A stretch of DNA of 64,000 nt from a bacterium (GTDB taxonomy: Bacteria > Patescibacteriota > Patescibacteriia > 2-01-FULL-39-33). Location: contig JBAXTU010000001.1 of assembly GCA_037130015.1 (NCBI GenBank), positions 5,153 through 69,152 on the forward strand, written 5' to 3'. This document shows, in pieces, positions 20,122 to 52,142 of the stretch (its first letter is position 1; the number at the start of each line of letters is the position of its first letter). A model generated the notes under the pieces. That model ran no database searches, was not told the origin of the DNA, and saw nothing but the letters and a program-made list of their open reading frames with translations. The translations under genes and the position numbers were made by a program.

Positions 20122-20156
20122 GCTTAATTATTTAATTTTTAAAATTATTAAAAAAT

Positions 20157-20828: not shown

Positions 20829-20835
20829 TTATTTT

Positions 20836-31455: not shown

Positions 31456-32004
31456 TATAAAATTGTACCAAACATTTACATAATCAGCGAAAGTGCTGTT
31501 GGTGAAATCTTGAGCCACTCCGGCTGTGAATTTGCCGATAGTGACATTGGGAGTGAATTGTATTGGGGCGGCTGGAGTAGTTGGGGTTGGGGCGGCTGGA
31601 GTAGTTGGGGTAGTCATGCCATTTGTTCCAATTACACCGTTATTGAGCAGGTTAGATCCTGTATTATAATCTTTGCCATTAAGTTGTTTGGCAATATAAA
31701 CAAAGTCTTTTGATAAGTTTAAACTATCCAGATTGGAAACATTATGCCACGGGCCATATATAGTATCCCCAGTGTAGCTGTGATAATACCATTTGCCACT
31801 ATCGTAATCAAAAGCAAAAAGTTCCCGTGCGTTAGCCTCCTTGCTATCAACAGTTATTATCGGTGACAGTTTTAAAGCTAAAGCATTATTTATTGGTAAT
31901 AAAACAAAAAAAAGATTGCACGCCAAAAACAAACCCAAGGTAAAGGCGAAGATTTTTTTGCTTGTCTGCCGGTAGGCAGGGTTTTTCTTATGTTGCTTTT
32001 TCAT
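30208..32004 (-). CDS. VirB1-like lytic transglycosylase (SLT domain) fused to two VirB2/TrbC-like hairpin modules
   Basis: Two copies of ...IVGI.G..ATVMIMWGGMKWLTSRGNSGTINEAK.TIFS.I.GL......SYTIL..VNP. SLT motifs ALVAIESGG and AFGLTQLLPGTAQ, then AYYNGG near the C-terminus. Confidence 0.6.
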   Translation of the reverse strand: MKKQHKKNPAYRQTSKKIFAFTLGLFLACNLFFVLLPINNALALKLSPIITVDSKEANARELFAFDYDSGKWYYHSYTGDTIYGPWHNVSNLDSLNLSKDFVYIAKQLNGKDYNTGSNLLNNGVIGTNGMTTPTTPAAPTPTTPAAPIQFTPNVTIGKFTAGVAQDFTNSTFADYVNVWYNFIVGIVGIIATVMIMWGGMKWLTSRGNSGTINEAKETIFSGIIGLVLVMLSYTILQYVNPRLLTMTMPDKSASTSVQACTAKAGEFCLNVPLGNNKTVASFPEYIGFWYQLLVGVIGVLATVMIMWGGMKWLTSRGNSGTINEAKDTIFSAIVGLIIMFGSYTILYMVNPELVKISMPELGPGVASPASPGSGVSSASGGSGAGGSGGGNTGGGKLNDRSTADCSNATAGVVSYDPSLSNMPPLKPPAMSPEINGWINTYSDKYNVDANALRALVAIESGGNTNVPPSGSNAFGLTQLLPGTAQGVVKDPKYGADFSSINASSIDGNWLMANPEKNIAIGAAYFSQANDIKNPITNKPLNLPDKFAYYNGGPNAVAPSVDCQDGMRYNCCHGNDYAETKNYESVAGGYYNYYKENGY

Positions 32005-38668: not shown

Positions 38669-38867
38669 AGTTTTTAGAGTTAGTTATTTCCGCCAGTTGG
38701 CGGGTTATTTAAATTTTAATTAAACTTTGGATTAGACTAAAAATTTGATTTTATGTTATAATAAAATTGATCTTTGAATATTTCTTTCTTTTAAATTTGC
38801 AAAATTTATTGTATAATTATTTTATAACATCAACTGTTGATAAGTCAATCTTTTTAATATTTCATAA

Positions 38868-40319
38868 ATGCCGACGGAAGACGGCAAGTACATGAAAATC
38901 AAAAAAAATAAACTAAAATTACTCTCAATTCCAACCGGCTTTTATATTGTCGGCCTGTCTTTGGTTGCGGTATTGGCCGGTTTTGGCGTGGCACTAGCTT
39001 GGGATGAACCGCTTTCTTCTCCACCACAAGGCAATATTTCTGGACCAGTAAATATTGGAGGTGGTAATCAGACTAAAACCGGAGGTTTAAGAGTAGAACA
39101 GGGCGTCACCACTACCCAGGTTTGTTTTATTGGTGATAATTCTTGTATTTCCTCGGCACTAAATAATGGTTGGTGGGCGCAAAATGGCGCTAATGATATT
39201 TATAATATTAACACTCATTTTGTAGGCATTGGCACCAATAATCCTTCGGCTCCATTGACGGTTTCTTTGGGTGCAGGTATTACATCTAAATTATTAATTG
39301 GTGAAGCAGATCTTAATGAAAATCCTGAATTGCAACTTGGTTATGTTGGTGGTCATTGGGGAATGTTTGTTAATAATGGTCCAAATAGTGAAGCCTCTGG
39401 TTTTGCTGGCAATTTGAATTTTTGGAATAGTAGTAATCGTTTTTCAATAACTTCAGGTGGTTATGTTGGTGTGGGTACGGTAAAGCCAGCCACAAATTTT
39501 GAAGTGGCTGGCACTAACGATGCTGTGGGTACTAAACTTAGAGTGACCAATACGGCTGGTAATCCTGAGTTGCAATTGCAATATGGGTTAGCAACTGGCG
39601 TTGATCATTGGGGAATTTATGCCAATCATGCTGACCAAAGTTTAAGATTTTGGAATAGTAGTGATCGTTTGGTTATTTTGCCTAATGGTGATATGGGTAT
39701 TAAAATTGGTATTAATACAGTCACTCCGACAGCAGTTTTGGAAATGGCTTTACCCAATCAAACCAAGGGCTTGGTTATTCATGTGGCAGGTTCATTGCCA
39801 GACAATCCGTTGGAAATTCAAAATGATAGTGGCAACCCTATTTTTCAAGTTGATTCAACTGGTGTAGCCACGGCTACTGATTTTTGTACTGCTAGTGGCA
39901 AATGCCTGAACAATACGACCAGTGTTATAAATGTTAGTGGTGGGGGTATTTTTGTTGGTTATACGTCTTCAACATATAAGGGTGACAATAGTTCAGGACC
40001 AACCAAGGGATATATTGGAGCTAGTAATCTTTGTACAGCAAATGTGGTTAGTAGTACTCATTGGTGCACTTCTGAAGAAATATTAGGCAGTATTAACGTG
40101 GGTATATCTTTGCCAGCTATTATTATGTGGATTGCCAATGGTCCTCCTGGATATTTAGCACAAAATAATGATTGTTCTGGTCGCACTGCAGGTGTTATTG
40201 GTCCAATAAATAATCGTAATTTTGGTAATGTTTGGGTTTTTCCTTCAGCTAATTATCCGCAAGGCTATGGCTCCATAGTCACCTGTGACAGCACTTATTC
40301 ATTGGCTTGTTGCAAATAG
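38868..40319 (+). CDS. surface protein 1: tail-fibre-like GIGTxxP beta repeats plus shared Cys-containing C-terminal (C-type-lectin-like) domain
   Basis: Signal anchor. Repeats VGIGTNNPSAPLTVS, VGVGTVKPATNFEVAG, IGINTVTPTAVLEMA. C-terminal module ...HWCTSEEILGSIN...IMWIANGPPGY...NDCSGRT...VTCDSTYSLACCK. Confidence 0.6.
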   Translation: MPTEDGKYMKIKKNKLKLLSIPTGFYIVGLSLVAVLAGFGVALAWDEPLSSPPQGNISGPVNIGGGNQTKTGGLRVEQGVTTTQVCFIGDNSCISSALNNGWWAQNGANDIYNINTHFVGIGTNNPSAPLTVSLGAGITSKLLIGEADLNENPELQLGYVGGHWGMFVNNGPNSEASGFAGNLNFWNSSNRFSITSGGYVGVGTVKPATNFEVAGTNDAVGTKLRVTNTAGNPELQLQYGLATGVDHWGIYANHADQSLRFWNSSDRLVILPNGDMGIKIGINTVTPTAVLEMALPNQTKGLVIHVAGSLPDNPLEIQNDSGNPIFQVDSTGVATATDFCTASGKCLNNTTSVINVSGGGIFVGYTSSTYKGDNSSGPTKGYIGASNLCTANVVSSTHWCTSEEILGSINVGISLPAIIMWIANGPPGYLAQNNDCSGRTAGVIGPINNRNFGNVWVFPSANYPQGYGSIVTCDSTYSLACCK

Positions 40320-40331
40320 ATTTAATAAAAT

Positions 40332-42674
40332 ATGAATATAAGCAAAGCAAAAAAAATCATTCTCTCAGCATCTTTTGCAATTTTTGCTTTGTTTTTAGTT
40401 GGAATAAATTTTGCTCAAGCTTCTTTGATTTGTGAGACCAATTTTACCAAGAATGGTTGGATTTGCGATGGCAGTCAAGGAAAATCTTGGTGCGGTAATA
40501 ATACTCTTGATTGCAATAATGAGCCTACTCCAGGAACAAATGAGACTATTGATTGCAATACTTGTAGTGCGGTTTGTGTTAGTGGTTTTCAAAATTGTGG
40601 TAGTGGTTGTACTAATATTCCTCATGCCCAAATAATAGCTCCTAATTGTTCAACTTATGATTTTTGTACTGGTCTTTGCAATAGTTGTAGCGTTGATTGG
40701 AATTCTTGCAGTGGTGGCACTTGTAATATTCAGACTGGAACAATCTGTACAGTTAATAGCAAAGAAGGAACATACAATGGGTGTAATTGTATTTGTAGTA
40801 GTAGTGGATTAGCGTGTACTGCTGGTGATGGCCGAGAAGGAAGATATGATAATAGCTGTGTTTGTAATGTTGATACTCCGCCAGCTTTATTAAATTATAG
40901 CAATAATATTTATGATTTGATTTTAAATAAAAATCTTACGGTTTTTGGCGTTAGTAATTTTAATGGAAACATTACAACCGCTTCTACTAGTGTGACTAAT
41001 TTTTGGGGTGATGTTATTTTTAATGGCAAGTTTTGTTTGGGCGCCACTTGTTTTAGCTCGGCAAATATTTCTCAGTGGAACAATGATATTGGATATCTAA
41101 CCACTTCAACCATTAGTTCTACAACTTTAAATTTTTCCACTACCACTATTAATAACTTAATAACAAATCTTAGCTCAAGTACTCTTAATTTTTCAACCAC
41201 CACTGTTAATAATTTAATAACCAATATTTATTCCACCACTAGCGGTGTATGGATTTTGGAAAATAACAATCTTTATACCAGCTCAACTGTTCTTAAGGTT
41301 GGTATTGGCACTACATCTCCAGCTGGTAATTTGCACGTATCAAAAAACCAAAATGACTTGACAACACTTATTGTTGATAATCAAAACTCTGGAACAGTTG
41401 CTGGTTCAAGATTTGAATTAAGAAATGGTGCAACAGAAGCTGACGCAACTAAATTATTAACAATGGGGACTGGATTTACGACCAATGGAGCCTATAAACA
41501 AGACGGTAGTTTATTAGAGTCTGGGGCTAATCTTTCTGGTGGTTTAAGTTTATTGGCAAGAGGGGCATCTGCTGATATGAGATTTTATACTGGTGGTTAT
41601 CTTGATGCTAATCAACGGATGACAATATTAAGTAGTGGCTTTGTCGGTATTGGAACGACAACTCCAGATAGTCTATTAACTGTTGTTGGTAGCTCTTGGC
41701 CTTCTGCGACAGTTAGACTATCTAATGGAACTAATACTGCTTCTATTTTAAAGGTAGAAAACGATAATGGAGCTTTTGCTGAGCTAGATACTGCAGGGTC
41801 AGGTTCAAATATTTATGGTTTGGCTCCTGGAGATAGTATTTTATGGGCAAAGAATAATTTACAATTTGGAGCAGGTGGGGCACGTGATGCAAGGTTATCT
41901 ATAAGTTCTAATGGTAATGTCGGTATCGGAACAACAACTCCAGCAAATAAATTGACTGTGCAAGGTAGTATGTCTGTGGAGGGGACAAATGCCAACGATA
42001 GAATATACACAGCCAATGGTGTTAGAAGTTTAGTTTTAACTGGTATGCCTGGTAGTAATCTATTTAATCAAGGCACTTTATCCATAAATGCTTGGAATGC
42101 TGGTGCTTCAGGTAGAACATTGCTTGGCTTAGGAGTAGCTGATACTCAAGTGTTTAGAGTTGATGTTTCAGGAAATACCGAAATAGCCGGTAAAGTCGGT
42201 ATTGGGACAACTACACCTTCAACTGCTTTATATGTGGTTGGTACGACCACGGCTACTGATTTTTGTACAATTGGAGGTAAATGCCTAGGCTCTATGAGTA
42301 GCGGAATTTCTGGCGTGCAGGTAGTAGCTTTAACTGCTAGTTCATATACTGGTTTAACAGCTAGTAATACTGGTTATAAAGGTGTTGATACTTTATGTAA
42401 TACGGCTTCAACTGGCAGTCATGTTTGTACAACTGAAGAAATAATGAATTATGTTAGATATGCTTCGGCTATCCCTGCTTTTTTGGTAGGAAAATATGGC
42501 TGGATTGTCAGTGGTCCTCCTGGTTTTACGGTAGAGGCGAATGATTGCAAAGGTTGGAGTAGTAATTCAAGCAATGCTTTTGGGCGTCTTTGGAATTTTG
42601 GCGCTGGCGGTCCGCAAGGTGAGGGTGAGATGGCGCTTTGTTTCCAATCGTATCAGTTTATTTGTTGTAAATAA
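40332..42674 (+). CDS. surface protein 2: Cys-rich N-terminal domain, GIGTTTP repeats, mosaic cassettes, lectin-like C-terminus
   Basis: Sec signal (AQA/S). N-terminal roughly 150 aa with more than 25 Cys. Carries cassettes identical to genes 3 and 4. C-terminus ...HVCTTEEIMNYV...WIVSGPPGF...NDCKGWS...ALCFQSYQFICCK. Confidence 0.6.
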   Translation: MNISKAKKIILSASFAIFALFLVGINFAQASLICETNFTKNGWICDGSQGKSWCGNNTLDCNNEPTPGTNETIDCNTCSAVCVSGFQNCGSGCTNIPHAQIIAPNCSTYDFCTGLCNSCSVDWNSCSGGTCNIQTGTICTVNSKEGTYNGCNCICSSSGLACTAGDGREGRYDNSCVCNVDTPPALLNYSNNIYDLILNKNLTVFGVSNFNGNITTASTSVTNFWGDVIFNGKFCLGATCFSSANISQWNNDIGYLTTSTISSTTLNFSTTTINNLITNLSSSTLNFSTTTVNNLITNIYSTTSGVWILENNNLYTSSTVLKVGIGTTSPAGNLHVSKNQNDLTTLIVDNQNSGTVAGSRFELRNGATEADATKLLTMGTGFTTNGAYKQDGSLLESGANLSGGLSLLARGASADMRFYTGGYLDANQRMTILSSGFVGIGTTTPDSLLTVVGSSWPSATVRLSNGTNTASILKVENDNGAFAELDTAGSGSNIYGLAPGDSILWAKNNLQFGAGGARDARLSISSNGNVGIGTTTPANKLTVQGSMSVEGTNANDRIYTANGVRSLVLTGMPGSNLFNQGTLSINAWNAGASGRTLLGLGVADTQVFRVDVSGNTEIAGKVGIGTTTPSTALYVVGTTTATDFCTIGGKCLGSMSSGISGVQVVALTASSYTGLTASNTGYKGVDTLCNTASTGSHVCTTEEIMNYVRYASAIPAFLVGKYGWIVSGPPGFTVEANDCKGWSSNSSNAFGRLWNFGAGGPQGEGEMALCFQSYQFICCK
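41298..41634. repeat. 337-bp coding cassette, near-identical copy at 43464-43800
   Basis: Direct comparison shows two mismatches (cttgat vs gctgat). Encodes GIGTTSPAGNLHVSKNQNDLTTLIVDNQNSGTVAGSRFELRNGATEADATKLL...RFYTGGY in surface proteins 2 and 3. Confidence 0.9.
41635..41941. repeat. 307-bp coding cassette, identical copy at 45586-45892
   Basis: Encodes GFVGIGTTTPDSLLTVVGSSWPSATVRLSNGTNTASILKVENDNGAFAELD...NGNVGIGTTTP in surface proteins 2 and 4. Directly abuts the first cassette. Confidence 0.9.
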
Positions 42675-42689
42675 TTTTTTTAAATAATT

Positions 42690-44567
42690 ATGAATTTTAA
42701 ACAAGCAAATTTGGCAGGTAAAATTATAATGGTTTCAGCCATGTTGGTTTTTGGTTTGTTTTTTTCGCATACTGTTAATGCTGTTTGTACGGAATTTATT
42801 AATGGCACTCACTGGTGCACGCCAGGCCAAACTCTTTGCGGTACGGCTGTGGCCGGTGGCTTAAATTCTTCTTATTTTTGTTTTGCGACTCAGCCGACTT
42901 GTGGATCTAATCAAGTAGAAAGTTGTGCTTCAACAAATCCTAGTTGTTGTGCTTGTTCCCCTGGCTATACAATGTGCAGTGGAACTTGTAAATCAAATAC
43001 TCCTGTTGGTTGTAAGGCTGGTGAAAGCTGGGATGCCTGTTCCCAGACTTGTACTTGTAGTAGTGGCAATGTTTGTAGCACTAATGGTGCTTGTAATGCA
43101 TCTTGCAGTATAACAGAATCTTATGATGCGATATCTTGTATGTGTGTGAGCAGATTTTATTGGAATTTAATAAATAGCAATACTTTGTCGCCGTATAATG
43201 CTAGTTTTAATGTCGGTATTGGTACAACAGGTACTTCGGCTTCAAATAAATTAACTGTCACTGGATCTGCGTTTATTCCTAATACTAATGTTTCTAGTAC
43301 GGTTATGGTTTCTGGTGCTTATGGTGGTGGTATTTTAATGCAAGATACAAAATATGGTGGAATTTGGATGAATGATCTTGGTGCCACTTTGAATTTCAGT
43401 TCTAATGGAACATCAGCTGGTTTTGGCAGTAATTATGGCCAAATGGTTTTAAAAAATGGTTATGTTGGTATTGGCACTACATCTCCAGCTGGTAATTTGC
43501 ACGTATCAAAAAACCAAAATGACTTGACAACACTTATTGTTGATAATCAAAACTCTGGAACAGTTGCTGGTTCAAGATTTGAATTAAGAAATGGTGCAAC
43601 AGAAGCTGACGCAACTAAATTATTAACAATGGGGACTGGATTTACGACCAATGGAGCCTATAAACAAGACGGTAGTTTATTAGAGTCTGGGGCTAATCTT
43701 TCTGGTGGTTTAAGTTTATTGGCAAGAGGGGCATCTGCTGATATGAGATTTTATACTGGTGGTTATGCTGATGCTAATCAACGGATGACAATATTAAGTA
43801 CTGGCAATGTTGGTATTGGGACAACTACGCCGGGAGTAAAATTAGATGTCTATGGTGGAAGTATTAGGCAAGATGGCGGAACATATAATTTGACCGTAAG
43901 TAATGGCTCAACCGTTACTGGCAGTAATCATCTTATTGTTACTGCTTCTAGTAGCTATATGCAGTTAAATGCTCCTAATAATAGTATAATATTGAATGCT
44001 GGTAATAAGCCTAGTGATTATATCTCATTTAATAGTGGAGATGGAGCAGTGGAATATATGAAGGTGGCTTATGGTGGTGCTGTCAGTATTCCAGGAGCCT
44101 TAGCGGTTGGTAGTTTTAATCTTGCTACAGGCGCTTCAGCTGGTAAAGTCCTAACTTCTGATGTTTCTGGTAATGCCACATGGGCGTCTTTGCCTGCCAG
44201 TGGAGTTGCTGTTTTTGTCACAACCACAGTTGCTGTTTTGGGTGATAATAGTTCCACTTCTGTTTCTCCTGGTTATAAAGCAGTCAATGCTTTGTGTAGT
44301 CAAAAAGTTTCTGGCAGTCATTTATGTTCTGTTTCAGAAATTTTTAACAGTATAAATGCTAATGTGACCATGCCGACGGTTGCAGTTTGGATTTCTAATG
44401 GTCCTCCTGGTTATACAGCCCAAAGCTTTGATTGTAATGGTAGAACCAATAAGACACCAGCTCATTTGGGAGCTATTTGGTTGCCGGCTGGTACGGAAGG
44501 CGCTCCCGAAGGGCATGGAGCCTTGGTAGCCTGTGATAATAGTTGGTCTTTAGCTTGTTGCAAATAA
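42690..44567 (+). CDS. surface protein 3: Cys-rich N-terminal domain, GIGTTTP repeats, lectin-like C-terminus
   Basis: Signal peptide (VNA/V). Cys-rich N-terminal domain. C-terminus ...HLCSVSEIFNSIN...WISNGPPGY...FDCNGRT...ALVACDNSWSLACCK. Confidence 0.6.
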   Translation: MNFKQANLAGKIIMVSAMLVFGLFFSHTVNAVCTEFINGTHWCTPGQTLCGTAVAGGLNSSYFCFATQPTCGSNQVESCASTNPSCCACSPGYTMCSGTCKSNTPVGCKAGESWDACSQTCTCSSGNVCSTNGACNASCSITESYDAISCMCVSRFYWNLINSNTLSPYNASFNVGIGTTGTSASNKLTVTGSAFIPNTNVSSTVMVSGAYGGGILMQDTKYGGIWMNDLGATLNFSSNGTSAGFGSNYGQMVLKNGYVGIGTTSPAGNLHVSKNQNDLTTLIVDNQNSGTVAGSRFELRNGATEADATKLLTMGTGFTTNGAYKQDGSLLESGANLSGGLSLLARGASADMRFYTGGYADANQRMTILSTGNVGIGTTTPGVKLDVYGGSIRQDGGTYNLTVSNGSTVTGSNHLIVTASSSYMQLNAPNNSIILNAGNKPSDYISFNSGDGAVEYMKVAYGGAVSIPGALAVGSFNLATGASAGKVLTSDVSGNATWASLPASGVAVFVTTTVAVLGDNSSTSVSPGYKAVNALCSQKVSGSHLCSVSEIFNSINANVTMPTVAVWISNGPPGYTAQSFDCNGRTNKTPAHLGAIWLPAGTEGAPEGHGALVACDNSWSLACCK

Positions 44568-44594
44568 ACTTATTTAAAATTTTTATTTAAAAAT

Positions 44595-47500
44595 ATGATG
44601 AACAAAAAATTATTAACTTTTTTAGGAATTGCTTTAATTGTTTTAGGATTTTTATTATCGTCTCATTCAGCTCTAGCTTTGGTCTGTACAACAAATACTA
44701 CAAAAAGTGGATTTTATTGTTCTAGTCTTCAAAATAAATCCTGGTGTGGTAACGGTACTTTGAATTGTGATTATGAGCCAGTTTGCAGTGGCGCTAATCA
44801 AACTTTTACATCAAGTGATTGTAATAGTTGCACCTGTTCTTGTACTAGTGGTTATACTATGTGTGCTGGTGATTGTAAGATTAGTACTGGTGATTGTCTA
44901 CCTGGTCAACAGTGGAGCCCATGTATGGGTAAGTGTGTTTGTGATTCTAATCATTGTAGTAATAATGGTACTTGCAATATAGTAATTGGATCAAGTTGTA
45001 CGGTGGCATTTAAACCGGGACATTATAATAGTAGTTGTTCTTGTGTTTTTGAAACCCCTCCTGCTTTATTGAATATTAATGATGCCAATATTTATGATTT
45101 GATATTAAATCAAGGTTTGACTGTTTTAGCTACTACTACTCTCGCAGGTACCAACACTTTTGCTACCACCACGGTAAGCAACTTAACTGTAAATAATTTA
45201 TGTTTGAATAATGGTTGTAACTCTGACTGGCCAATAAGTGGTGGTAGTAATGTTTGGGTTTCATCAGGTAATATTATTTATCCAACCTCAACAGTTAGTA
45301 GTGTTAATATTGGGACGACTACATCTTTTGTAAATTCACGGTTTAATGTTTTGGGAAATATAAGTGCTATAAGTAACAATTATATTGCAAATAGTGGTGT
45401 TGGTTTATATTTAGGAACATTTATAGAAAATAATGGTTATGTTTATGGTGGTTCAATAATTAAAAACATTAATACCACTAACGGTGATGGTAATGGATTT
45501 ACTTTACCAAGACTAGGTTTTTTTACTTCAGGTGTAGTTAATGGTAGTCCAGCGCAGATAGCTGAAAGAATGTCAATATTATCAGGTGGCTTTGTCGGTA
45601 TTGGAACGACAACTCCAGATAGTCTATTAACTGTTGTTGGTAGCTCTTGGCCTTCTGCGACAGTTAGACTATCTAATGGAACTAATACTGCTTCTATTTT
45701 AAAGGTAGAAAACGATAATGGAGCTTTTGCTGAGCTAGATACTGCAGGGTCAGGTTCAAATATTTATGGTTTGGCTCCTGGAGATAGTATTTTATGGGCA
45801 AAGAATAATTTACAATTTGGAGCAGGTGGGGCACGTGATGCAAGGTTATCTATAAGTTCTAATGGTAATGTCGGTATCGGAACAACAACTCCTATAGCAA
45901 AATTAGTTGTTCAGACAACAGCACCTAGCGATGGGATTGCGTTAAGTGATGGGAGTAAATACAGGGCATTTTTAGCTAATAATAATAGTAATGGAGCTAT
46001 ATTTGGATTAAATGAGAATACTACCCTGGTAGTTAGGCTTGAGAGTAATAATACTTCTTATATTAATAATGGTTATAATTTTGGTATTGGCACTACCGAT
46101 CCTAAAACAAAATTAGATGTTCAGGGTGGTATTGTTAGTGCAAATGGATATAATTTAAGCGACTCAGCCACTGATAATCTTTTGGTTAATGGTGATTTTG
46201 AAATGAATAATATGTCAGGTTGGTCGGGAAATGGAGTAGTGACTTCTACTGCTGGCAGTTATTCTGGAAAATATGCCATGCAGATAACAGGTAGTCAGCA
46301 AATTTTAAGTGATGATTATATTCCTGTTGACCCAACCAGAGATATTTTTCAATTAGATGCTTGGGTTAAAAAAACAGTAATAGGAGGAGGTTTATATTTT
46401 GGTTATATTGCTTATAACGCTGATAAGGTAGAAATTACAACTCCTCCTTGTGGCACTTATTGTTATTCGGCAGCAGCTGCTTATGTTGTCCCTGTTGATA
46501 GTAGTTGGCATAAATTTTCATCAACAATGGTCGGAGAAGGCACTGTTTTTCCAAATTTCCCTGTCGGGACAAAATATATCAGGGTTTTGGGTTTAATGAA
46601 TTATGGTGGTACTGGTGGTCCTATAACTTTACTTGATCATGTCACTTTAAAGCGATTGGTTAAAGGCCCATTGATTGCTGGTAATAATTTTTCTTCTACC
46701 GGTTTAGTTGATCAAAATCAATATTCAACCTTATACACAACCGCCTCAAATAACTTGATTATTGGTTCTCCTGGCAATGTTGGTATTGGGACAACTACAC
46801 CAGAATCTAAACTACATGTGGCTGGACAAATTTCAACCGCACCATCTTTGTCAGGTTTAGCTGGAGCTGGGTTAGGATTGCAATTTTCTAATTCTTTAAA
46901 AATAGGAATAGGTAGTGACCCAGTAAGTCCGTATGGTGGTTGGTTTCAAGTCAGTAATGGTATTGGGAGTTCTTTCCCACTGCTTCTTAATCCTCTTGGT
47001 GGAAATGTTGGTATTGGGACTACGACCCCAGCAAATAAATTGACTGTGCAAGGTGGTGTACAAATTGTAGATGGTTCGCAGGCTAATGGTAAAGTTCTAA
47101 CTTCTGATGCCAATGGCTTGGCGAGTTGGCAACCTGCCGGAGGTATAATTAATGATGTTTATTTATATAATGGCGCCAGGATAATAACTGTTTCTACCAC
47201 AAAAAATAATTACTTTTTTGGTGGAGCTGGTAATACTGCTATGACTGGAGTTAATAATATGGCTAATGGTAATGGTGCTCTTTTATTTAATGTTAGTGGC
47301 AGGGATAATCTTGCCAATGGTTTTGGCGCTCTTACTAATAATGTTAGTGGTAGCAATAACGTAGCCAATGGTAGTGGCGCTCTTTATAATAATATTATTG
47401 GTTCGGGAAATTCTGCTTTTGGTTATAACTCTCTTTATAATAGTTTGGGTGGTACTAATATTGCTATTGGAAATTATTCTGGAGCAGGTTTGCAAAATGG

Positions 47501-49112
47501 CTCAAGCAATATATTTTTAGGTTCCAGTGCTCAGGTGTTTAATAATCCTGGTGATCCTAATACTATTATTATTCCCACAAATTCAATTGCTATTGGTACT
47601 AATGCTACAATTGGTGTCACCACTACCGCGGGTATAACCAATGCCATTGCTATTGGTGCTAATACTGTGGCCATGGCCTCTAATACTATGGTATTAGGAA
47701 ATGGAGTTAGTGTTGGTATTGGGACAAATAATCCATCTGCTAAACTGGATGTAAGAGGTGGAACTCTTGTTTTTGGTAATATCTATTCAATTGCTAATTT
47801 TAATGACGGGTCACAGCTAGCAGGTAATGGTAAGGGTCTTGTGGTTGGCTATGATTCATCAAAACAATCAACTGTTTTTTGGGCGAATTCAGTCGGTCCA
47901 TCTTCAAATTTTGCTTTTTGGACTTATGATAGTGATAGTACTACGTGGGCTGAAAGAATGACTATTTCGGGTAGTGGTGCTGTCAGTATTCCAGGAGCCT
48001 TAGCGGTTGATAGTTTTAAGCTTGCTACAGGCGCTTCAGTTGGCAATGTCATGACTTCCGATGTTAGTGGCAATGCCTCATGGTTGCCACCTAGCGGTGG
48101 TATAGTTAATGATGTTTATTCATATAATAGTAAAAACATCATGGTAGTTTCTACTACACGAGATAGTTATTTTTTTGGCGGAGCTGGTAACACTACTATG
48201 ACTGGTAACGGTAATACAGGTAGTGGTATGTATTCTCTTAGTTATGATACTACTGGAGGCTTTAATACGGCTTATGGTTATGGTGCTCTTTATCAAAATA
48301 CCACTGGTGGAAATAATGTTGCTGTTGGTGCTACTGCTCTTAGTAATAATACTAGTGGTAGTGGTAATGTAGGTATTGGTTTTAAAGCACTTATGCTTTT
48401 TAATTCTACTAGTGGTGGTAATGTAGGTATTGGTAATAATGCTGGTATGGGTATGGTGAAAGGCGCAAGTAATATTTTTTTAGGTGAGAATGCTCAAGTA
48501 TATAACGAGGCCATTGGCAATACTAATATTAATCCCACAAATTCAATTGCTATTGGTTCTTTGGCACAGATTGGTAATGCACTTACTACAAATATAGACA
48601 ATGCAACCGCTATTGGCTATGGCGCATTGGCAGTCGCATCTAATACTATGGTATTAGGAAATGGAGCTATTAGTGTTGGTATTGGAACAAGCACACCACA
48701 AAATGCATTGCATGTTTATAGTGCTACTGGCCAATCTTACATTTCAGCTGATGCTCCAGCTAATAGAGTGGCTGGTTTTAATATCAGAGAAAACGGAGTT
48801 GTTAAATGGTATATATCTAAATCAAACACCACCACTCCAGCAATTCAGAATGGTGCTTTAAATTTTGCCACTTCTTCAGGGAATGTAATGACATTAGCAC
48901 AAAATGGCAATGTTGGTATTGGCACTTCCACTCCAGCCTCAACGCTTGATGTTAAAGGGACTGTTCGTATAGAAAATAGAAATGTCGTGCCTGCTGTAGG
49001 AATGGGATGGGTTGTTTGTTATGTAAGGGGCACTAATGAATTAGGTCATTGCACTGGCACTGTTTCTGGTGGGGGACAATGTGCTTGTGTTTCTAATACT
49101 CCAGCGAAGTAA
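44595..49112 (+). CDS. surface protein 4 (1505 aa): Cys-rich N-terminus, GIGTTTP repeats, CBM4_9-like module, duplicated YadA-head-like repeat modules
   Basis: Signal peptide (ALA/L). LLVNGDFEMNNMSGWSGNG CBM-like module. Two internal roughly 225-aa modules with NxxAxGxxAL-type repeats (MANGNGALLFNVSG..., NSIAIGTNATIG...). Different C-terminus from genes 1-3. Confidence 0.6.
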   Translation: MMNKKLLTFLGIALIVLGFLLSSHSALALVCTTNTTKSGFYCSSLQNKSWCGNGTLNCDYEPVCSGANQTFTSSDCNSCTCSCTSGYTMCAGDCKISTGDCLPGQQWSPCMGKCVCDSNHCSNNGTCNIVIGSSCTVAFKPGHYNSSCSCVFETPPALLNINDANIYDLILNQGLTVLATTTLAGTNTFATTTVSNLTVNNLCLNNGCNSDWPISGGSNVWVSSGNIIYPTSTVSSVNIGTTTSFVNSRFNVLGNISAISNNYIANSGVGLYLGTFIENNGYVYGGSIIKNINTTNGDGNGFTLPRLGFFTSGVVNGSPAQIAERMSILSGGFVGIGTTTPDSLLTVVGSSWPSATVRLSNGTNTASILKVENDNGAFAELDTAGSGSNIYGLAPGDSILWAKNNLQFGAGGARDARLSISSNGNVGIGTTTPIAKLVVQTTAPSDGIALSDGSKYRAFLANNNSNGAIFGLNENTTLVVRLESNNTSYINNGYNFGIGTTDPKTKLDVQGGIVSANGYNLSDSATDNLLVNGDFEMNNMSGWSGNGVVTSTAGSYSGKYAMQITGSQQILSDDYIPVDPTRDIFQLDAWVKKTVIGGGLYFGYIAYNADKVEITTPPCGTYCYSAAAAYVVPVDSSWHKFSSTMVGEGTVFPNFPVGTKYIRVLGLMNYGGTGGPITLLDHVTLKRLVKGPLIAGNNFSSTGLVDQNQYSTLYTTASNNLIIGSPGNVGIGTTTPESKLHVAGQISTAPSLSGLAGAGLGLQFSNSLKIGIGSDPVSPYGGWFQVSNGIGSSFPLLLNPLGGNVGIGTTTPANKLTVQGGVQIVDGSQANGKVLTSDANGLASWQPAGGIINDVYLYNGARIITVSTTKNNYFFGGAGNTAMTGVNNMANGNGALLFNVSGRDNLANGFGALTNNVSGSNNVANGSGALYNNIIGSGNSAFGYNSLYNSLGGTNIAIGNYSGAGLQNGSSNIFLGSSAQVFNNPGDPNTIIIPTNSIAIGTNATIGVTTTAGITNAIAIGANTVAMASNTMVLGNGVSVGIGTNNPSAKLDVRGGTLVFGNIYSIANFNDGSQLAGNGKGLVVGYDSSKQSTVFWANSVGPSSNFAFWTYDSDSTTWAERMTISGSGAVSIPGALAVDSFKLATGASVGNVMTSDVSGNASWLPPSGGIVNDVYSYNSKNIMVVSTTRDSYFFGGAGNTTMTGNGNTGSGMYSLSYDTTGGFNTAYGYGALYQNTTGGNNVAVGATALSNNTSGSGNVGIGFKALMLFNSTSGGNVGIGNNAGMGMVKGASNIFLGENAQVYNEAIGNTNINPTNSIAIGSLAQIGNALTTNIDNATAIGYGALAVASNTMVLGNGAISVGIGTSTPQNALHVYSATGQSYISADAPANRVAGFNIRENGVVKWYISKSNTTTPAIQNGALNFATSSGNVMTLAQNGNVGIGTSTPASTLDVKGTVRIENRNVVPAVGMGWVVCYVRGTNELGHCTGTVSGGGQCACVSNTPAK

Positions 49113-49126
49113 ATAATTATCTTTAA

Positions 49127-50950
49127 ATGTGGCAAAAAAAACCAAAGCACAAAATAAAATATTTTTTACTGATAATTTTTTCAGCACTTTTTATAATTTC
49201 CGGTTTGTTGTTTTGGCATTTTCAGACGTCCCAAGCTGATCAAAGTGTTCCTTTTTATGGTTGGGTTTGGTCGGAAAATTATGGTTGGATTTCTCTGAAT
49301 TCCGACAATTGTGCTCAGATGTGTTTGGCTGATCCTGTTAATTGTGGTTGCACTAATGTTGGGCAATCCTATGGCATCAAAAAAAATCCAGATAAGACTA
49401 TTAATGGCTATGGTTGGTCAGAGTATATTGGTTGGGTTTGTTTTGGTGATACTTGTTCTGCAAATCCGCCATTTGATAGCACTTCCACTATGAGTATTGA
49501 TACTAATGGCAATATTTCAGGCTGGGCGCAAGTTTTGTCTATGGGTGAAGATGGTTGGATGAAGTTTGGCGGTTATAAAGGTTCTGTGCCGAATGGTCAG
49601 AACTATTCAGGAGAGGCTTGTTATGACTGTACAAAAAAATGTGGTGAGTGGACCACTACTTATTATGCAGATGGCACTACTAGTACCAGCTCGCCTTGTG
49701 TAGTTTATGTGCCTAATGAGTTTAGTAAATGTAATACTTGTTTTACAGCCACGAAATTTAATAATACTCCCTATGCTTCGGCTAATTTACCAGGTCAAAA
49801 GGACAGTGCAGTGGTTGGCGGAAGTGGCTATATGTGTAGTAGTTGTAATAATTGCCAAGTTGAAGGAAATACTGCCAGTGATCACTACCGAGTTAAATGC
49901 AGTGATTGCCAATCTGGTAATTGCTATATGTATGGCGTAGGCAGTGACACATCAAATAGTAACCAATTGGTTGGCTGGGGTTGGAGTGGCGGTAGTAATG
50001 GAGTTGGTTGGGTGCATTTTAATGGTGAAGTTGGTATAGTCAATCCTTGGCTAGAAACCAAATATGGTTCTATTTACAGTTCCAGTACAGTGGGACAAAA
50101 AGCCTCAAATCTTTCTTATAACGCCACTTATTGTATTTTTGCCAATAATTTACAGAATATTAATGTTATCAATGTGGCCAATTGTACAGAAGGCAATGTA
50201 GCTGATAGTAATCTGGGGTTTCCATCTTCGCCTGTCAGTACTGGTCAATATCAGAATGTTTTGGGTAAAATTGATGTTAAAGGCTTAATGACAACAGTAA
50301 AAGGAAGTTATAATAAATATGGTCAAGAGGTGGTGATGCTTGAAGATCCGAATGCTTTGCCGGACGTTTTGGATAATAAAATTTATGTAGTGAGTAGTAC
50401 TGGCCATGATCTTTCTTTATCAAATCCTAAAACTTTTAAAAATGGAACAGAGACTGAAAGAGGAAATGGACTGGTTATTGTTAAAGGGAATTTATTTATT
50501 GGTAATGATATTAGTTATGAATCAAACAGTCCCAGTGATTTAAAGCAATTAGCGTCTGTTGGCTGGTTGGTTTTGGGTGATGTGGTGGTGAGTCCGACAG
50601 TGAAAAATATTGTAGGCGCTTTTGTACTTTTGGGTGGTAAAAAAACAGATGGCAATCAAATTGATTGTAATAAAGACATTAAATTTGCAGATAATTTTCC
50701 GAAATATAAACAAAATGGTTGTGGCGCTTTCTTTTCATTTAATCCAGAGTATAAAGATACTACCAACTTTCCACTTAATGTTTACGGTTTGATTGTGTCC
50801 CATGCTTTTGATTTGCGTCGTACCTATACCAGTTTGTCACAAGGTTCGGAAAGTATTATTTACGATGGCCGTCTTTCGGTCAATCCGCCACCAGGCATGA
50901 CAGGTTTTGTTGAGGCCTTGCCGGTTATTAGAGATTTTGAATATAAATAA
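49127..50950 (+). CDS. secreted Cys-rich protein with GW-containing repeats
   Basis: Signal anchor. Repeated motifs YGWVWSENYGWISL, YGWSEYIGWVCF, GWGWSGGSNGVGWVHF. More than 25 Cys. Unrelated to genes 1-4 outside general composition. Confidence 0.5.
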   Translation: MWQKKPKHKIKYFLLIIFSALFIISGLLFWHFQTSQADQSVPFYGWVWSENYGWISLNSDNCAQMCLADPVNCGCTNVGQSYGIKKNPDKTINGYGWSEYIGWVCFGDTCSANPPFDSTSTMSIDTNGNISGWAQVLSMGEDGWMKFGGYKGSVPNGQNYSGEACYDCTKKCGEWTTTYYADGTTSTSSPCVVYVPNEFSKCNTCFTATKFNNTPYASANLPGQKDSAVVGGSGYMCSSCNNCQVEGNTASDHYRVKCSDCQSGNCYMYGVGSDTSNSNQLVGWGWSGGSNGVGWVHFNGEVGIVNPWLETKYGSIYSSSTVGQKASNLSYNATYCIFANNLQNINVINVANCTEGNVADSNLGFPSSPVSTGQYQNVLGKIDVKGLMTTVKGSYNKYGQEVVMLEDPNALPDVLDNKIYVVSSTGHDLSLSNPKTFKNGTETERGNGLVIVKGNLFIGNDISYESNSPSDLKQLASVGWLVLGDVVVSPTVKNIVGAFVLLGGKKTDGNQIDCNKDIKFADNFPKYKQNGCGAFFSFNPEYKDTTNFPLNVYGLIVSHAFDLRRTYTSLSQGSESIIYDGRLSVNPPPGMTGFVEALPVIRDFEYK

Positions 50951-51011
50951 TTTTGGTTATTTATAAAAAATGTGTTAAAATATAATTAAGAAGTTATTAA
51001 CAGTTAAAAAA

Positions 51012-52142
51012 ATGGGATTATTTTCTTCAAACAAAACTAGTTATCTCGGAGTTGATTTGGGTTCGTCTTCAATCAAGGTGGTTGAATTGGCCAATAGCAA
51101 TGGGCGACCGCGACTGGTCACTTATGGTTTTACCGAAAAAAAATTGACTGACAATAATTTTATCAGCAGTAGTGATTTTTTGAATGCCGAAGACGAAATT
51201 GCCAAAACACTCATGGAAGTGTGCAATAAATCGCGTACTTTTTCCAAAAAAGCCGTAGCTGCTTTGCCTAGCTTTGCTGTATTTACTTCTATTTTGAATT
51301 TGCCTGAAATGTCCAAAAAAGAATTGGCTTCAGCTATTACTTGGGAAGCAAAAAAAATAATTCCTATGCCTTTGGAAGAAGTTATTTTGGATTGGAAAAT
51401 TATTTCTCAAGAAGAATATAAAAATGAAGACACTAAAGATCCGGCCGGAGAAGGGGATAACCAACAATTAAATCCTGTTAGTAAAATATTTTCTCATCCT
51501 ACTAAGGGTTTGAAAATTCTGCTCACTGGCGCCAGTAAAAGCTTGGTGCGCAAATATGTGAATATTTTTAATACGGCTGGCGTCTCTTTGCTGAGCTTAG
51601 AAACTGAAAATTTTGCCTTGGTGCGTTCGCTTATTGGCAATGATCAGGCAGTTATTATGATTGTTGATCTTGGAGCCAATTCTTCAAGTATTATGGTGGC
51701 TGAAAAAGGCATACCGGTTATGGCTAGAAGCGTGGAAATGGGAGGAACTCTTATTACTAAGGCTATTTCTAGCAGTCTTAATGTCAATTTGGACAGAGCC
51801 GAACAATTCAAACAGGACATGATGTTAGAAACAAATTCGGCCAGTAATTCTTTGCCACAAACAGTGGAAAAAGCTTTTGCTACAATTCTTAATGAAATTA
51901 AATATACGGTTGGTTTGTATCAAGAACAGCACAATCAAAAAATAGAAAAAATAATTTTGACCGGTGGTAGTGCAAATTTGGGAAATTTGACCGGTTATTT
52001 ATCAAAAGTTTTAAACATCAACGCTTATGTTGGCGATCCTTGGGCTAGAGTTATTTATCCTGTTGAATTAAAGCCGATTTTGGATCGTTTGGGTTCGCGT
52101 TTTTCTGTGGCCATAGGTTTGGCCATGCGCAACATTGAATAA
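51012..52142 (+). CDS. pilM: type IV pilus assembly protein PilM (actin-like ATPase fold)
   Basis: N-terminus YLGVDLGSSSIKVVEL. About 375 aa. Immediately upstream of a PilN-like gene. Confidence 0.75.
   Translation: MGLFSSNKTSYLGVDLGSSSIKVVELANSNGRPRLVTYGFTEKKLTDNNFISSSDFLNAEDEIAKTLMEVCNKSRTFSKKAVAALPSFAVFTSILNLPEMSKKELASAITWEAKKIIPMPLEEVILDWKIISQEEYKNEDTKDPAGEGDNQQLNPVSKIFSHPTKGLKILLTGASKSLVRKYVNIFNTAGVSLLSLETENFALVRSLIGNDQAVIMIVDLGANSSSIMVAEKGIPVMARSVEMGGTLITKAISSSLNVNLDRAEQFKQDMMLETNSASNSLPQTVEKAFATILNEIKYTVGLYQEQHNQKIEKIILTGGSANLGNLTGYLSKVLNINAYVGDPWARVIYPVELKPILDRLGSRFSVAIGLAMRNIE

What the first reader, a model, noticed from the sequence alone, without database searches (positions are those of the whole stretch)
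38868..49112. Tandem family of tail-fibre-like surface proteins exchanging nucleotide-identical cassettes
Four consecutive secreted proteins share Cys-rich N-terminal domains and GIGTTTP...L.V beta repeats. Gene 2 contains two abutting cassettes. One is 337 bp (41298-41634) and is near-identical to gene 3 (43464-43800). The other is 307 bp (41635-41941) and is identical to gene 4 (45586-45892). Shorter identical stretches link genes 3 and 4 (44076-44110 vs 47976-48010). Perfect DNA identity inside otherwise diverged paralogues implies recent gene conversion or cassette shuffling, of the kind used for adhesin, receptor-binding or antigenic variation. The location immediately upstream of the type IV pilus operon suggests host-attachment or tip adhesins of an episymbiont.
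Basis: seen in the sequence. Interest (0 to 1): 0.8.

Follow-up and report, generated by a model that had tools for sequence, protein, structure and literature searches.

The report
Recombining fibre-adhesin gene array beside pilus operon
A probable ultrasmall (Patescibacteria/CPR) bacterium carries a row of tail-fibre-like surface protein genes, related to the prey-recognition fibres of Bdellovibrio, next to its pilus genes, and these genes have very recently swapped whole repeat units, which public assemblies of the same population show in different versions.

Summary
Gene 2 holds two abutting tracts: 41298-41634 matches gene 3 at 335/337 nt, and 41635-41941 matches gene 4 at 307/307 nt. Elsewhere the paralogues share 25-38% amino-acid identity and synonymous sites are near saturation. 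No shuffle gave an identical run above 30 nt.

Similar arrays occur in other Patescibacteria. Pilus genes lie within reach in three of the 13 loci fetched.

Other assemblies of the same near-clonal population break at these repeats. They also show an alternative 36-nt, 16-substitution patch in gene 4's cassette, a fifth copy about 51 kb upstream, and chimeric joins.

Best reading: ordinary homologous recombination and gene conversion in a tandem adhesin family, as in S. aureus lpl or H. pylori bab. It is not a programmed cassette system, a DGR or a prophage. Which N-terminal half pairs with which tip needs read-level confirmation.

The parts
38669..38867 (+). Divergent intergenic region with the best promoter-like sites upstream of g1
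   Evidence: Sites at 38733-38762 (extended -10) and 38790-38817. There is no intergenic terminator between g1 and the pilus genes, and the gaps between genes are 12-27 nt. Operon status is inferred.
38868..40319 (+). g1: signal/anchor, two GIGT-type fibre repeats, C-type-lectin-like tip (483 aa)
   Evidence: The identical protein occurs in 7 contigs from other assemblies.
40332..42674 (+). g2: signal peptide, Cys-rich N-domain, four fibre repeats (two of them are cassettes R1 and R2), lectin-like tip (780 aa)
   Evidence: Its repeats match MAT fibres 8OND at E 1.9e-8 and 8OL4 at 1e-7.
41298..41634 (+). Cassette R1, g2 copy (one 115-aa fibre repeat unit)
   Evidence: 335/337 identical to 43464-43800. 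L001 independently assembles X2 into R1 up to 41600.
43464..43800 (+). Cassette R1, g3 copy
   Evidence: L012 carries a 2-nt variant at 43599-43600 (Thr to Val).
41635..41941 (+). Cassette R2, g2 copy (one 92-aa fibre repeat unit)
   Evidence: 307/307 identical to 45586-45892.
45586..45892 (+). Cassette R2, g4 copy
   Evidence: A third R2-type copy sits in a fifth gene upstream of the window.
45644..45679 (+). Polymorphic patch inside R2 of g4: 16 substitutions in 36 nt in contigs L012 and L013, with flanks otherwise 100% identical
   Evidence: No donor is found in the window, the other loci or the viral contigs.
42690..44567 (+). g3: signal peptide, Cys-rich N-domain, three fibre repeats, lectin-like tip (625 aa) = MEI6287992.1 / WCP18_00190
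44595..49112 (+). g4: signal peptide, Cys-rich N-domain, eight GIGT fibre-repeat motifs plus one degenerate GIGF motif, CBM-like insert, internally duplicated YadA-head-like repeat block, short Cys tail (1505 aa)
44074..44183 (+). Third shared tract, g3 copy (89% to 47974-48083; 36 nt exact)
   Evidence: The Logan contigs L008 and L011 start at 47980, inside the partner copy.
47974..48083 (+). Third shared tract, g4 copy
39870..40316 (+). C-type-lectin-like tip domain of g1 (homologous tips: g2 42249-42671, g3 44172-44564)
46176..46430 (+). CBM_4_9 / NTTRR-F1-like carbohydrate-binding-type insert in g4 (weak, below curated cut-offs)
   Evidence: Pfam E 5.9e-5 at 23.9 bits against a cut-off of 25.9. 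NCBIfam E 3.4e-6. PDB 8XMZ E 0.006.
49002..49109 (+). Short Cys-containing C-terminal tail of g4, homologous to the 'T tail' of the fifth gene
   Evidence: Compare g4 '...VVCYVRGTNELGHC...CACVSN' with P0001/P0003 '...VVCYMATGILGHC...CTCVAN'.
49127..52142 (+). Context: p607 (secreted GW-repeat protein) and PilM, the start of the type IV pilus gene set
   Evidence: The same order is found in L016.

Best explanation
Window 38.9-49.1 kb encodes a tandem family of modular, secreted fibre proteins. A fifth member lies about 51 kb upstream on the same contig.

Each protein has a Sec-type signal, a Cys-rich N-terminal module (g2-g4), a shaft and a terminal module. The shaft has 2-9 repeats of about 75-115 aa, each marked by '..RM.I...G.VGIGTT.P..L.V.G'. 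These repeats are homologous to the trimeric beta-helix/prism shafts of Bdellovibrio MAT fibres, and more distantly to phage tail fibres. The terminal module is a C-type-lectin-like tip in g1-g3. In g4 and the fifth gene it is a short Cys-containing tail.

The conserved repeat-boundary coding block supplies homology for ordinary homologous recombination between paralogues. Whole repeat units have recently been copied between genes: R1 between g2 and g3, and R2 between g2, g4 and the fifth gene. In the natural population the R2 copies exist in several marker combinations.

Shown: the identity tracts, their borders at the motif, the homology to MAT fibres, the lectin-like tip fold, conserved synteny with pilus genes in some other Patescibacteria, and allelic or chimeric variants in independent assemblies.

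Inferred: the fibres are trimeric and surface-displayed. They bind host-cell surface glycans. They are co-transcribed with the type IV pilus genes. The identical shaft cassettes act as crossover points that re-assort N-terminal halves with tips and change gene number.
For: Identity tracts against saturated flanks. All four tract ends fall in or beside the RM.I..G.VGIGTTTP coding block.

The only PDB sequence matches to the repeats are MAT fibres: Bd2133 8OND at E 1.9e-8, Bd2439 8OL4/8ONF at 1e-7, and Bd1334 8OML. The alignments run through the same motif (PDB identities from PMC10769870). PHROG tail-fibre families match at E 2e-11. Phage tail fibres match at 28-33% identity.

Family distribution: 13 loci in reference genomes, 10 of them titled Patescibacteria or a CPR lineage. 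They form same-strand arrays. Pilus genes are adjacent in L015, L016 and L018.

L016 has identical flanks (ClpB-M48-LemA on one side, p607-PilM on the other) but only two, very diverged fibre genes.

Population evidence:
- Flanks are clonal, with 0-2 SNPs per contig.
- Contigs from 4 or more assemblies break at 41600, 45752/45775, 47980 and inside the fifth gene's R2.
- g4's R2 carries an alternative 36-nt patch with 16 substitutions.
- The window-type patch is linked to the T-type 3' end in L028, and the alternative patch is linked to T in L013 (a k141 assembly; the markers are 116 nt apart).
- So either all four patch x 3'-marker combinations exist, or X4-R2'-T is a real chimeric gene. Both alternatives require recombination between R2 copies.

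Inter-paralogue shared tracts also occur in other arrays: L021 at 85-90% over 200-270 nt, and L025 with 125 nt identical.
Against: No read-level data were available. The window contig itself traverses four exact repeats of about 300 nt, whereas every other assembly breaks there. Its pairing of 5' halves with 3' halves (X2-R1-R2-Y2 and X4-R2-Y4) is therefore unverified.

L012 (X4-R2'-Y2) is a closed 3,951-bp cycle equal to the R2-R2 spacing. A graph loop would also produce that.

The 5' part of the fifth gene was never seen.

The cassettes lie in the shaft, not the tip, so an adaptive effect on binding is not demonstrated. Neutral concerted evolution would give the same tracts.

The single-sequence fold of g3 failed (pLDDT 31.6), so the shaft fold rests on sequence homology only. 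Trimerisation, surface display, host binding and co-transcription with the pili are all untested.

The source MAG is labelled only '[bacterium]'. Its Patescibacteria assignment is inferred from gene content and from syntenic relatives.
Confidence: 0.72

Rival explanations
1. The exchange is neutral concerted evolution. Tandem repeat-containing paralogues inevitably undergo gene conversion. On this view the identical tracts and variants are by-products with no role in diversifying host recognition.
For: The cassettes are shaft units, not tips. Tract borders sit at the most conserved DNA motif, as expected for passive homology-driven events. Most other arrays show no fresh tracts.
Against: The array is far more variable than its flanks between relatives: flank proteins score E 1e-86 to 0, fibre genes E 1e-8 to 1e-28, and there are 2 genes versus 4. 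Within a clonal population, variation is concentrated in the cassettes. Chimeras that re-pair N-terminal halves with different tips are seen as complete ORFs.
Confidence: 0.3
2. The result is an assembly artefact. The identical segments, or their placement in g2, result from collapse or mis-joining of repeats in a short-read metagenome assembly.
For: All other assemblies break at these repeats. Different assemblies give conflicting 3' partners for the same 5' half. L012 is a graph-like cycle.
Against: Each repeat copy is independently assembled from its unique flank in other samples. X2 runs into R1 for 303 nt (L001). X3 runs into R1 for 222 nt (L012). R1 runs into Y3 (L012, L013). X4 runs into R2 (L012, L013). 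R2 runs into Y4 (L007, L009). The R1-R2 abutment after X2 is reproduced in the JGI protein P0001. Breaks at repeats are what real repeats produce. Mis-joins could change which halves are paired, but not the existence of near-identical cassettes in three or more genes.
Confidence: 0.07
3. This is a programmed variation system. It would be either a cassette or expression-site mechanism (pilE/pilS or vlsE type) or a diversity-generating retroelement acting on the lectin-like tips.
For: CTLD folds are the classic DGR target, and DGRs are common in CPR (background from papers listed). Conversion tracts between surface-protein genes resemble antigenic-variation cassettes.
Against: No reverse transcriptase, integrase or invertase is present among the window's ORFs (pilus genes). 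All four genes are full-length with their own start and signal peptide, so there are no silent cassettes. The mismatches are not adenine-specific: TT/GC at 41601-41602 and mixed changes in the patch. The tracts lie in the shaft, not in the tip.
Confidence: 0.04
4. These are prophage or tailocin tail-fibre genes rather than cellular adhesins.
For: PHROG tail-fibre and tail-spike hits. Distant tblastn matches to cyanophage and pelagiphage tail fibres.
Against: The neighbours are ClpB, an M48 peptidase and LemA on one side and the type IV pilus genes on the other. The same flanks occur in a relative. There are no capsid, terminase, baseplate or sheath genes. No close relative exists in 2.9 million viral contigs. 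The proteins carry Sec signal peptides.
Confidence: 0.03

Closest known systems
Bdellovibrio bacteriovorus MAT (mosaic adhesive trimer) fibre superfamily, non-S74 subgroup (Caulton et al. 2024, PMC10769870)
   Different: The organism is different (probably monoderm Patescibacteria rather than a diderm predator). [quoted passage not shown] There is no S74 chaperone. The tip belongs to a large, mainly Patescibacteria-associated family with no Pfam model. The genes are in one tight tandem array beside the pilus genes. Nucleotide-identical cassette exchange has not been reported for MATs in the paper read.
Staphylococcus aureus lpl tandem lipoprotein-like paralogue cluster (Tsuru and Kobayashi 2008, PMC2568036)
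   Same: Both are same-strand tandem paralogues of host-interaction proteins. A conserved sequence inside each ORF serves as the homologous recombination site. [quoted passage not shown] Here these are segments Y2-IG-X3 and Y3-IG-X4, which are 100% conserved across contigs while their partners change.
   Different: The protein family is unrelated. Here the recombination sites are repeated structural units of a fibre, and several occur per gene. The evidence here comes from metagenome assemblies, not finished genomes.
Helicobacter pylori babA/babB/babC adhesin gene conversion and chimeras (e.g. PMC4552749)
   Same: Full-length paralogous adhesin genes exchange segments by intragenomic homologous recombination. 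This gives chimeric genes that segregate among strains.
   Different: The bab loci are dispersed, the proteins are outer-membrane beta-barrels, and conversion is coupled to phase-variable CT repeats. No phase-variable repeat was seen to vary here.
Phage tail-fibre mosaicism (S74-chaperone tail fibres and endosialidases)
   Same: The shaft repeats are distantly homologous. Conserved shaft segments flank variable tips.
   Different: The setting is cellular and chromosomal, with Sec signals, no S74 domain and no phage module.

Membership tests
MAT (mosaic adhesive trimer) fibre superfamily | Fibre shaft of beta-helix/prism repeats with the conserved capping-loop motif, homologous to solved MAT shafts | tested here: met
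   phmmer against the PDB gave 8OND (Bd2133) at E 1.9e-8, 8OL4/8ONF (Bd2439) at 1e-7 and 8OML (Bd1334) at 1.8e-3. The alignments run through the motif, and no other PDB family matched the g2 repeat region. g4 matched 8OND and 8OML, plus one weak hit (8XMZ, E 0.006) to its CBM-like insert outside the repeats.
MAT (mosaic adhesive trimer) fibre superfamily | N-terminal signal peptide | tested here: met
   Read from the sequences: a Lys-rich n-region, a hydrophobic core, and AQA/S, VNA/V and ALA/L sites in g2-g4. g1 has a longer signal or anchor. No predictor was run.
MAT (mosaic adhesive trimer) fibre superfamily | Conserved beta-rich N-terminal domain of about 130 aa after the signal peptide (PMC10769870) | not testable with these tools
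   No MAT N-domain sequence or structure was available here. Our g2-g4 N-modules have 20-22 Cys and match no Pfam or NCBIfam model.
MAT (mosaic adhesive trimer) fibre superfamily | Variable adhesive C-terminal tip, with or without an S74 chaperone | tested here: met
MAT (mosaic adhesive trimer) fibre superfamily | Homotrimeric fibre displayed on the cell surface that binds prey or host surface molecules | not testable with these tools
   No multimer prediction or experiment was possible. The single-sequence monomer model of g3 was unusable.
Phage or tailocin tail fibre | Encoded within a phage, prophage or tailocin structural gene module | tested here: not met
   The neighbours are housekeeping, T4SS and type IV pilus genes. 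There is no close relative in the viral contigs.
Diversity-generating retroelement target | Nearby reverse transcriptase and a template/variable repeat pair differing at adenines | tested here: not met
   No RT is present in the window. The differences between repeats are not A-specific.
Expression-site / silent-cassette antigenic variation (pilE/pilS, vlsE type) | One expressed gene plus promoterless or truncated donor cassettes | tested here: not met
   All four genes are complete ORFs with start codons and signal peptides, separated by 12-27 nt.
Trimeric autotransporter adhesin | C-terminal YadA-type beta-barrel membrane anchor | tested here: not met
   No Pfam hit at E<=0.1 in any of the four proteins apart from the weak CBM_4_9 match. 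g4's head-like repeats matched only PHROG tail-spike and virion families.
Tandem paralogue cluster diversified by recombination at an intragenic conserved region (lpl type) | Conserved intragenic recombination site, with 3'ORF-intergenic-5'ORF units kept intact while partners change | tested here: inconclusive
   The site and the intact units are seen. Partner changes (P0122, P0003, P0001) come from short-read contigs that cross repeats, and one is a cyclic contig. At least one recombination event is logically required.

The most novel reading that the evidence does not exclude
Patescibacteria episymbionts carry a host-recognition fibre repertoire homologous to the Bdellovibrio MAT prey-recognition fibres. 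It is encoded as a fast-evolving, copy-number-variable array co-transcribed with the type IV pilus machinery. In-array recombination at shaft repeat units re-assorts anchors and lectin-like tips on ecological timescales. If so, it is a shared 'bacterium-that-lives-on-bacteria' recognition toolkit that sets host range.
Probability: 0.3. Interest if true: 0.75.

Novelty: new variant of a known kind. Interest (0 to 1): 0.55.

Why it matters
How ultrasmall CPR/Patescibacteria recognise and attach to their host cells is largely unknown beyond a requirement for type IV pili (background in PMC12206443 and PMC10633639, listed).

This locus gives concrete candidates. The proteins are MAT-like fibres with lectin-like tips, sit in a conserved position beside the pilus genes, and belong to a tip-domain family with more than 1,000 sequence clusters and no Pfam model.

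The near-clonal population sampled in several public metagenomes, with variation concentrated in the cassettes, makes the recombination hypothesis directly testable by read mapping.

The recombination mechanism itself is ordinary. The same process is seen in bab, lpl and phage tail fibres.

Tried and rejected
- Pfam and NCBIfam scans of g1-g4 gave no family, only a sub-threshold CBM_4_9 / NTTRR-F1 match in g4.
- Single-sequence AlphaFold of g3 gave pLDDT 31.6 and was unusable.
- Exact look-ups of g2, P0001 and P0002 contigs were not on record. P0001's 10.6-kb JGI contig could never be retrieved, so X2-R1-R2-T is known only at protein level.
- The metagenome scan with g2 returned only the L012 contig again.
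- An exact T-tail pattern found nothing in the GTDB representative genomes.
- The 33-sequence tip alignment was too diverse to seed a genome scan. The 3-sequence alignment worked.
- A donor for the R2' patch was sought in the window (up to 3 mismatches), the fetched loci and the viral contigs. None was found.
- The tip profile found no match among PDB sequences.
- I first read L012 and L013 as a strain diverged by about 1%. I rejected this after the per-site analysis showed 0 mismatches over 2,018 nt of flank, with all differences in one patch.
- DGR, prophage, TAA and silent-cassette readings were considered and rejected, as set out in the membership tests.
- A 51-kb circular-element reading of the X4-R2'-T join was considered. 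I rejected it as implausible because the interval carries LeuRS, KsgA, RecG, RadA and ClpB.

Full report
**1. The observation**

The four + strand ORFs are present as described: g1 38868-40319, g2 40332-42674, g3 42690-44567 and g4 44595-49112. Gaps between them are 12-27 nt.

R1 (41298-41634) matches 43464-43800 at 335 of 337 positions. The only mismatches are at 41601-41602, so 303 nt are exact. R2 (41635-41941) matches 45586-45892 at 307 of 307. The two tracts abut in g2.

The third link is a 110-nt tract of 89% identity (44074-44183 vs 47974-48083) with 36 nt exact. These are the only inter-gene repeats of this quality in the 64-kb window.

Outside the tracts the paralogues share 25-38% amino-acid identity. 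In codon alignments, third-position identity is 1.0 inside the tracts and about 0.3-0.65 outside. None of 2,000 shuffles gave an identical run above 30 nt. Selection on the protein cannot explain synonymous identity, so the tracts were copied recently.

Two minor corrections apply. g1 lacks the Cys-rich N-domain. g4 lacks the C-terminal domain shared by g1-g3.

**2. Anatomy of the cassettes**

The GIGT coding motif occurs 16 times on the + strand, all within 39225-48925. About 0.7 matches are expected by chance. Each cassette runs from one motif to the next: R1 is a 115-aa unit and R2 a 92-aa unit. All four tract ends lie in or directly beside the conserved block that encodes RM.I..(S/T)G.VGIGTTTP. 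That block is the longest stretch of DNA homology shared by all repeats. It is where homology-driven exchange would be expected to start and end.

**3. What the proteins are**

Pfam and NCBIfam recognise nothing in g1-g4 except a sub-threshold carbohydrate-binding-type segment in g4. PHROGs gives tail-fibre families at E 2e-11.

Against all PDB sequences, the g2 repeat region matches only the Bdellovibrio bacteriovorus MAT fibre structures: 8OND Bd2133 at E 1.9e-8, 8OL4/8ONF Bd2439 at 1e-7, and 8OML Bd1334. The alignments run through the same motif (PDB identities from PMC10769870). g4 matches 8OND and 8OML as well.

That paper describes MATs as signal-peptide-bearing trimeric beta-helix/prism fibres with capping-loop motifs, variable adhesive tips, and S74 and non-S74 subgroups. 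The paralogues Bd1334 and Bd2133 are 75% identical in the shaft and then diverge at the tip.

The C-terminal roughly 135 aa of g1-g3 form a family of their own. It has 1,068 cluster representatives at E<=1e-3 and 692 at E<=1e-10. In the 150 best hits listed it is always C-terminal, in proteins of 118-2,196 aa. None of the 40 members checked has a Pfam domain covering this region, and there is no PDB sequence match.

g4 instead ends in a short Cys-containing tail. It carries a CBM-like insert and an internally duplicated head-like repeat block.

**4. Context and distribution**

The window is chromosomal. It carries KsgA, RecG, RadA, ClpB, a VirB4/PrgI/T4SS-pilin cluster, and then the type IV pilus genes PilM, PilB, PilT, PilC, a pilin and the prepilin peptidase directly downstream. 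No reverse transcriptase, integrase or phage structural gene was found.

The best promoter-like sites lie in the 200-nt gap before g1, and there is no intergenic terminator. Co-transcription with the pilus genes is plausible but inferred.

The source is an NCBI MAG labelled only '[bacterium]' (MEI6287990-94, WCP18_00180-00200, a 74,222-nt contig).

The tip domain found 13 loci in GTDB representative genomes. Ten are titled Patescibacteria or a CPR lineage (Falkowbacteria, Parcubacteria, Staskawiczbacteria, Magasanikbacteria). The other three are titled Elusimicrobiales or 'uncultured Gammaproteobacteria'.

These loci show same-strand arrays of 2-5 or more genes with GIGT motifs and lectin-like tips. 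Pilus genes are within reach in L015, L016 and L018.

L016 has the same flanks as the window: p414, p416, ClpB, M48 and LemA on one side, p607 and PilM on the other, at E 1e-38 to 0. Between them are only two fibre genes, which are very diverged (E 1e-28 and 1e-8). The array is therefore a fast-evolving slot of variable gene number.

Shared tracts between paralogues also occur in L021 (85-90% over 200-270 nt across three genes) and L025 (125 nt identical). Most arrays have none.

No close relative exists in the viral contigs. Phage tail fibres match only at 28-33% identity.

**5. Population evidence**

Proteins identical to g1 and p607 occur on contigs from other assemblies (NCBI GCA_964512275.1, ENA MEGAHIT k141, JGI, Logan). 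These contigs are 99.98-100% identical to the window, with 0-2 SNPs each.

They end or start exactly at the repeats:
- L001 ends at 41600, the last base of the 303-nt exact part of R1.
- L002 ends at 41575.
- L003 (Logan) ends at 41327.
- L007 and L009 start at 45752 and 45775, inside R2.
- L008 and L011 (Logan) start at 47980, inside the third tract.

This shows that the repeats are real in several samples. It also shows that each copy is joined to its unique flank. But the window contig's own pairing of 5' and 3' halves across the repeats has no independent check.

Three variant proteins exist:
- P0001 (JGI) reads X2-R1-R2 and then a short 'T' tail.
- P0003 (ENA) reads X4-R2' and then the same T tail.
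- P0122 (JGI) reads X4-R2' and then the g2 C-terminal half with its lectin-like tip.

Their contigs L012 and L013 are not from a diverged strain. Over 43626-45643 they have 0 mismatches to the window. All differences sit in one patch (45644-45679, 16 substitutions in 36 nt), plus the switch into a different 3' end. L012 also carries a 2-nt change inside R1 of g3. Dense multi-base patches in a clonal background indicate templated replacement, not point mutation. No donor lies in the window.

The T tail belongs to a fifth gene. Its downstream neighbour p528 is WCP18_00010, the second gene of the same 74-kb contig. L028 shows the order T, p528, a Phd/YefM-type pair, LeuRS, FemAB and then the window, with window position 1 at L028 position 5249. 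T therefore lies about 51 kb upstream of g4's R2.

Every assembly starts inside this gene's R2-type unit, so its 5' part is unknown.

L028 (k141) links the window-type patch to the T-type 3' markers. L013 (k141) links the R2' patch to T. The markers are 116 nt apart, which is shorter than k. X4 is linked to R2' across only 58 nt in two assemblies.

Two possibilities follow. R2' may occur both in g4 and in the fifth gene. In that case all four patch x 3'-marker combinations exist, which is a four-gamete result. Otherwise X4-R2'-T is a genuine chimeric gene. Both require recombination between R2 copies in this population.

By contrast, L012's X4-R2'-Y2 join crosses a 213-nt exact repeat. L012 is also a closed cycle whose unit (3,951 nt) equals the R2-R2 spacing. 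A tandem duplication, an excised circle or a plain graph loop would all give this, so I do not count it as proof.

**6. Mechanism and rivals**

The best-supported reading is ordinary homologous recombination and gene conversion between tandem paralogous fibre genes. It is seeded by the conserved repeat-boundary motif, copies whole shaft units, and creates long identical tracts that then serve as crossover points.

This matches the S. aureus lpl cluster, where a conserved intragenic region is the recombination site and the 3'ORF-intergenic-5'ORF unit is what stays intact (PMC2568036). Here those units are Y2-IG-X3 and Y3-IG-X4. It also matches the H. pylori bab chimeras (PMC4552749).

Whether the exchange is adaptive or neutral concerted evolution is open, because the cassettes are shaft units and not tips.

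A pure assembly artefact is unlikely given the independent flank-to-repeat joins, but mis-pairing of halves remains possible. The DGR, silent-cassette, prophage and TAA readings each fail a defining feature (see the membership tests).

**7. Novelty**

No paper in the searchable library links Patescibacteria to MAT fibres. The mechanism is known, and the fibre class is known from Bdellovibrio and phages.

What appears new is this architecture: a Cys-rich N-module, MAT-type shaft repeats, and a lectin-like tip family found mainly in Patescibacteria. Also new are its conserved position beside type IV pilus genes in Patescibacteria and a caught-in-the-act case of cassette exchange visible across public metagenomes.

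I rate it a new variant of a known kind, of moderate interest.

Noticed in passing
window 49127-50950; L013 2390-3976 / L028 371-1957 (upstream of the window on the same contig): Both g4 and the fifth fibre gene are followed by paralogous secreted proteins, p607 and p528 (25% identity over their N-terminal ~200 aa, BLASTP E 1e-10), with repeated 'GW' motifs. g4 and the fifth gene also end in homologous short Cys tails. This looks like an old two-gene module duplication. A p607 homologue also sits between the fibre genes and PilM in L016.
   Followed up: partly
L012 (JGI Ga0194043_1012803), whole contig: The contig's first and last 34 nt are identical. It is therefore a closed cycle of 3,951 nt, exactly the spacing between the two R2 copies. 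This is compatible with a tandem duplication, an excised circle or an assembly-graph loop.
   Followed up: partly
window 4900-14211: A 3,103-aa ORF with only a weak CBM_4_9 match follows a TSP3-repeat protein (3932-4888). It is another giant putative surface protein.
   Followed up: no
window 19690-22848 and 29259-32004: A T4SS-like cluster is present: a PrgI-family protein, a VirB4/TraG-type ATPase, and two T4SS-pilin proteins, one fused to an SLT transglycosylase. The two pilin genes share internal repeats of 73-78% identity (about 29788-30121 vs 30890-31223, and others).
   Followed up: no
window 38901, 40349, 49134: The only A8 homopolymers in 38.6-49.2 kb lie 7-33 nt into the ORFs of g1, g2 and p607, in the Lys-rich signal-peptide n-regions. 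Their length does not vary among the assemblies compared, so there is no sign of phase variation.
   Followed up: partly
window 36066 (ClpB) and 35327: An A/G difference at 36066 is shared by contigs L001-L005 relative to the window. It is almost the only SNP in more than 12 kb of flank, which shows how clonal the sampled population is.
   Followed up: yes
L013 4098-4562 / L028 2079-2543: A small two-gene pair (73 aa with a weak, sub-threshold Phd/YefM antitoxin match at E 1.3e-4, plus 79 aa) sits between p528 and leucyl-tRNA synthetase, just upstream of the window.
   Followed up: no
window 47129-47727 vs 48086-48690: g4 contains an internal duplication of about 600 nt at 69% identity with a 960-nt period. 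It covers the YadA-head-like NxxAxG repeat blocks, which match PHROG tail-spike and virion structural families.
   Followed up: no
L015 and L017 (JBMOHE010000001.1, overlapping ranges): One Patescibacteria genome carries an array of at least seven consecutive fibre genes, up to 2,123 aa with 15 GIGT motifs. At least four have the lectin-like tip, and the array lies downstream of PilC.
   Followed up: partly
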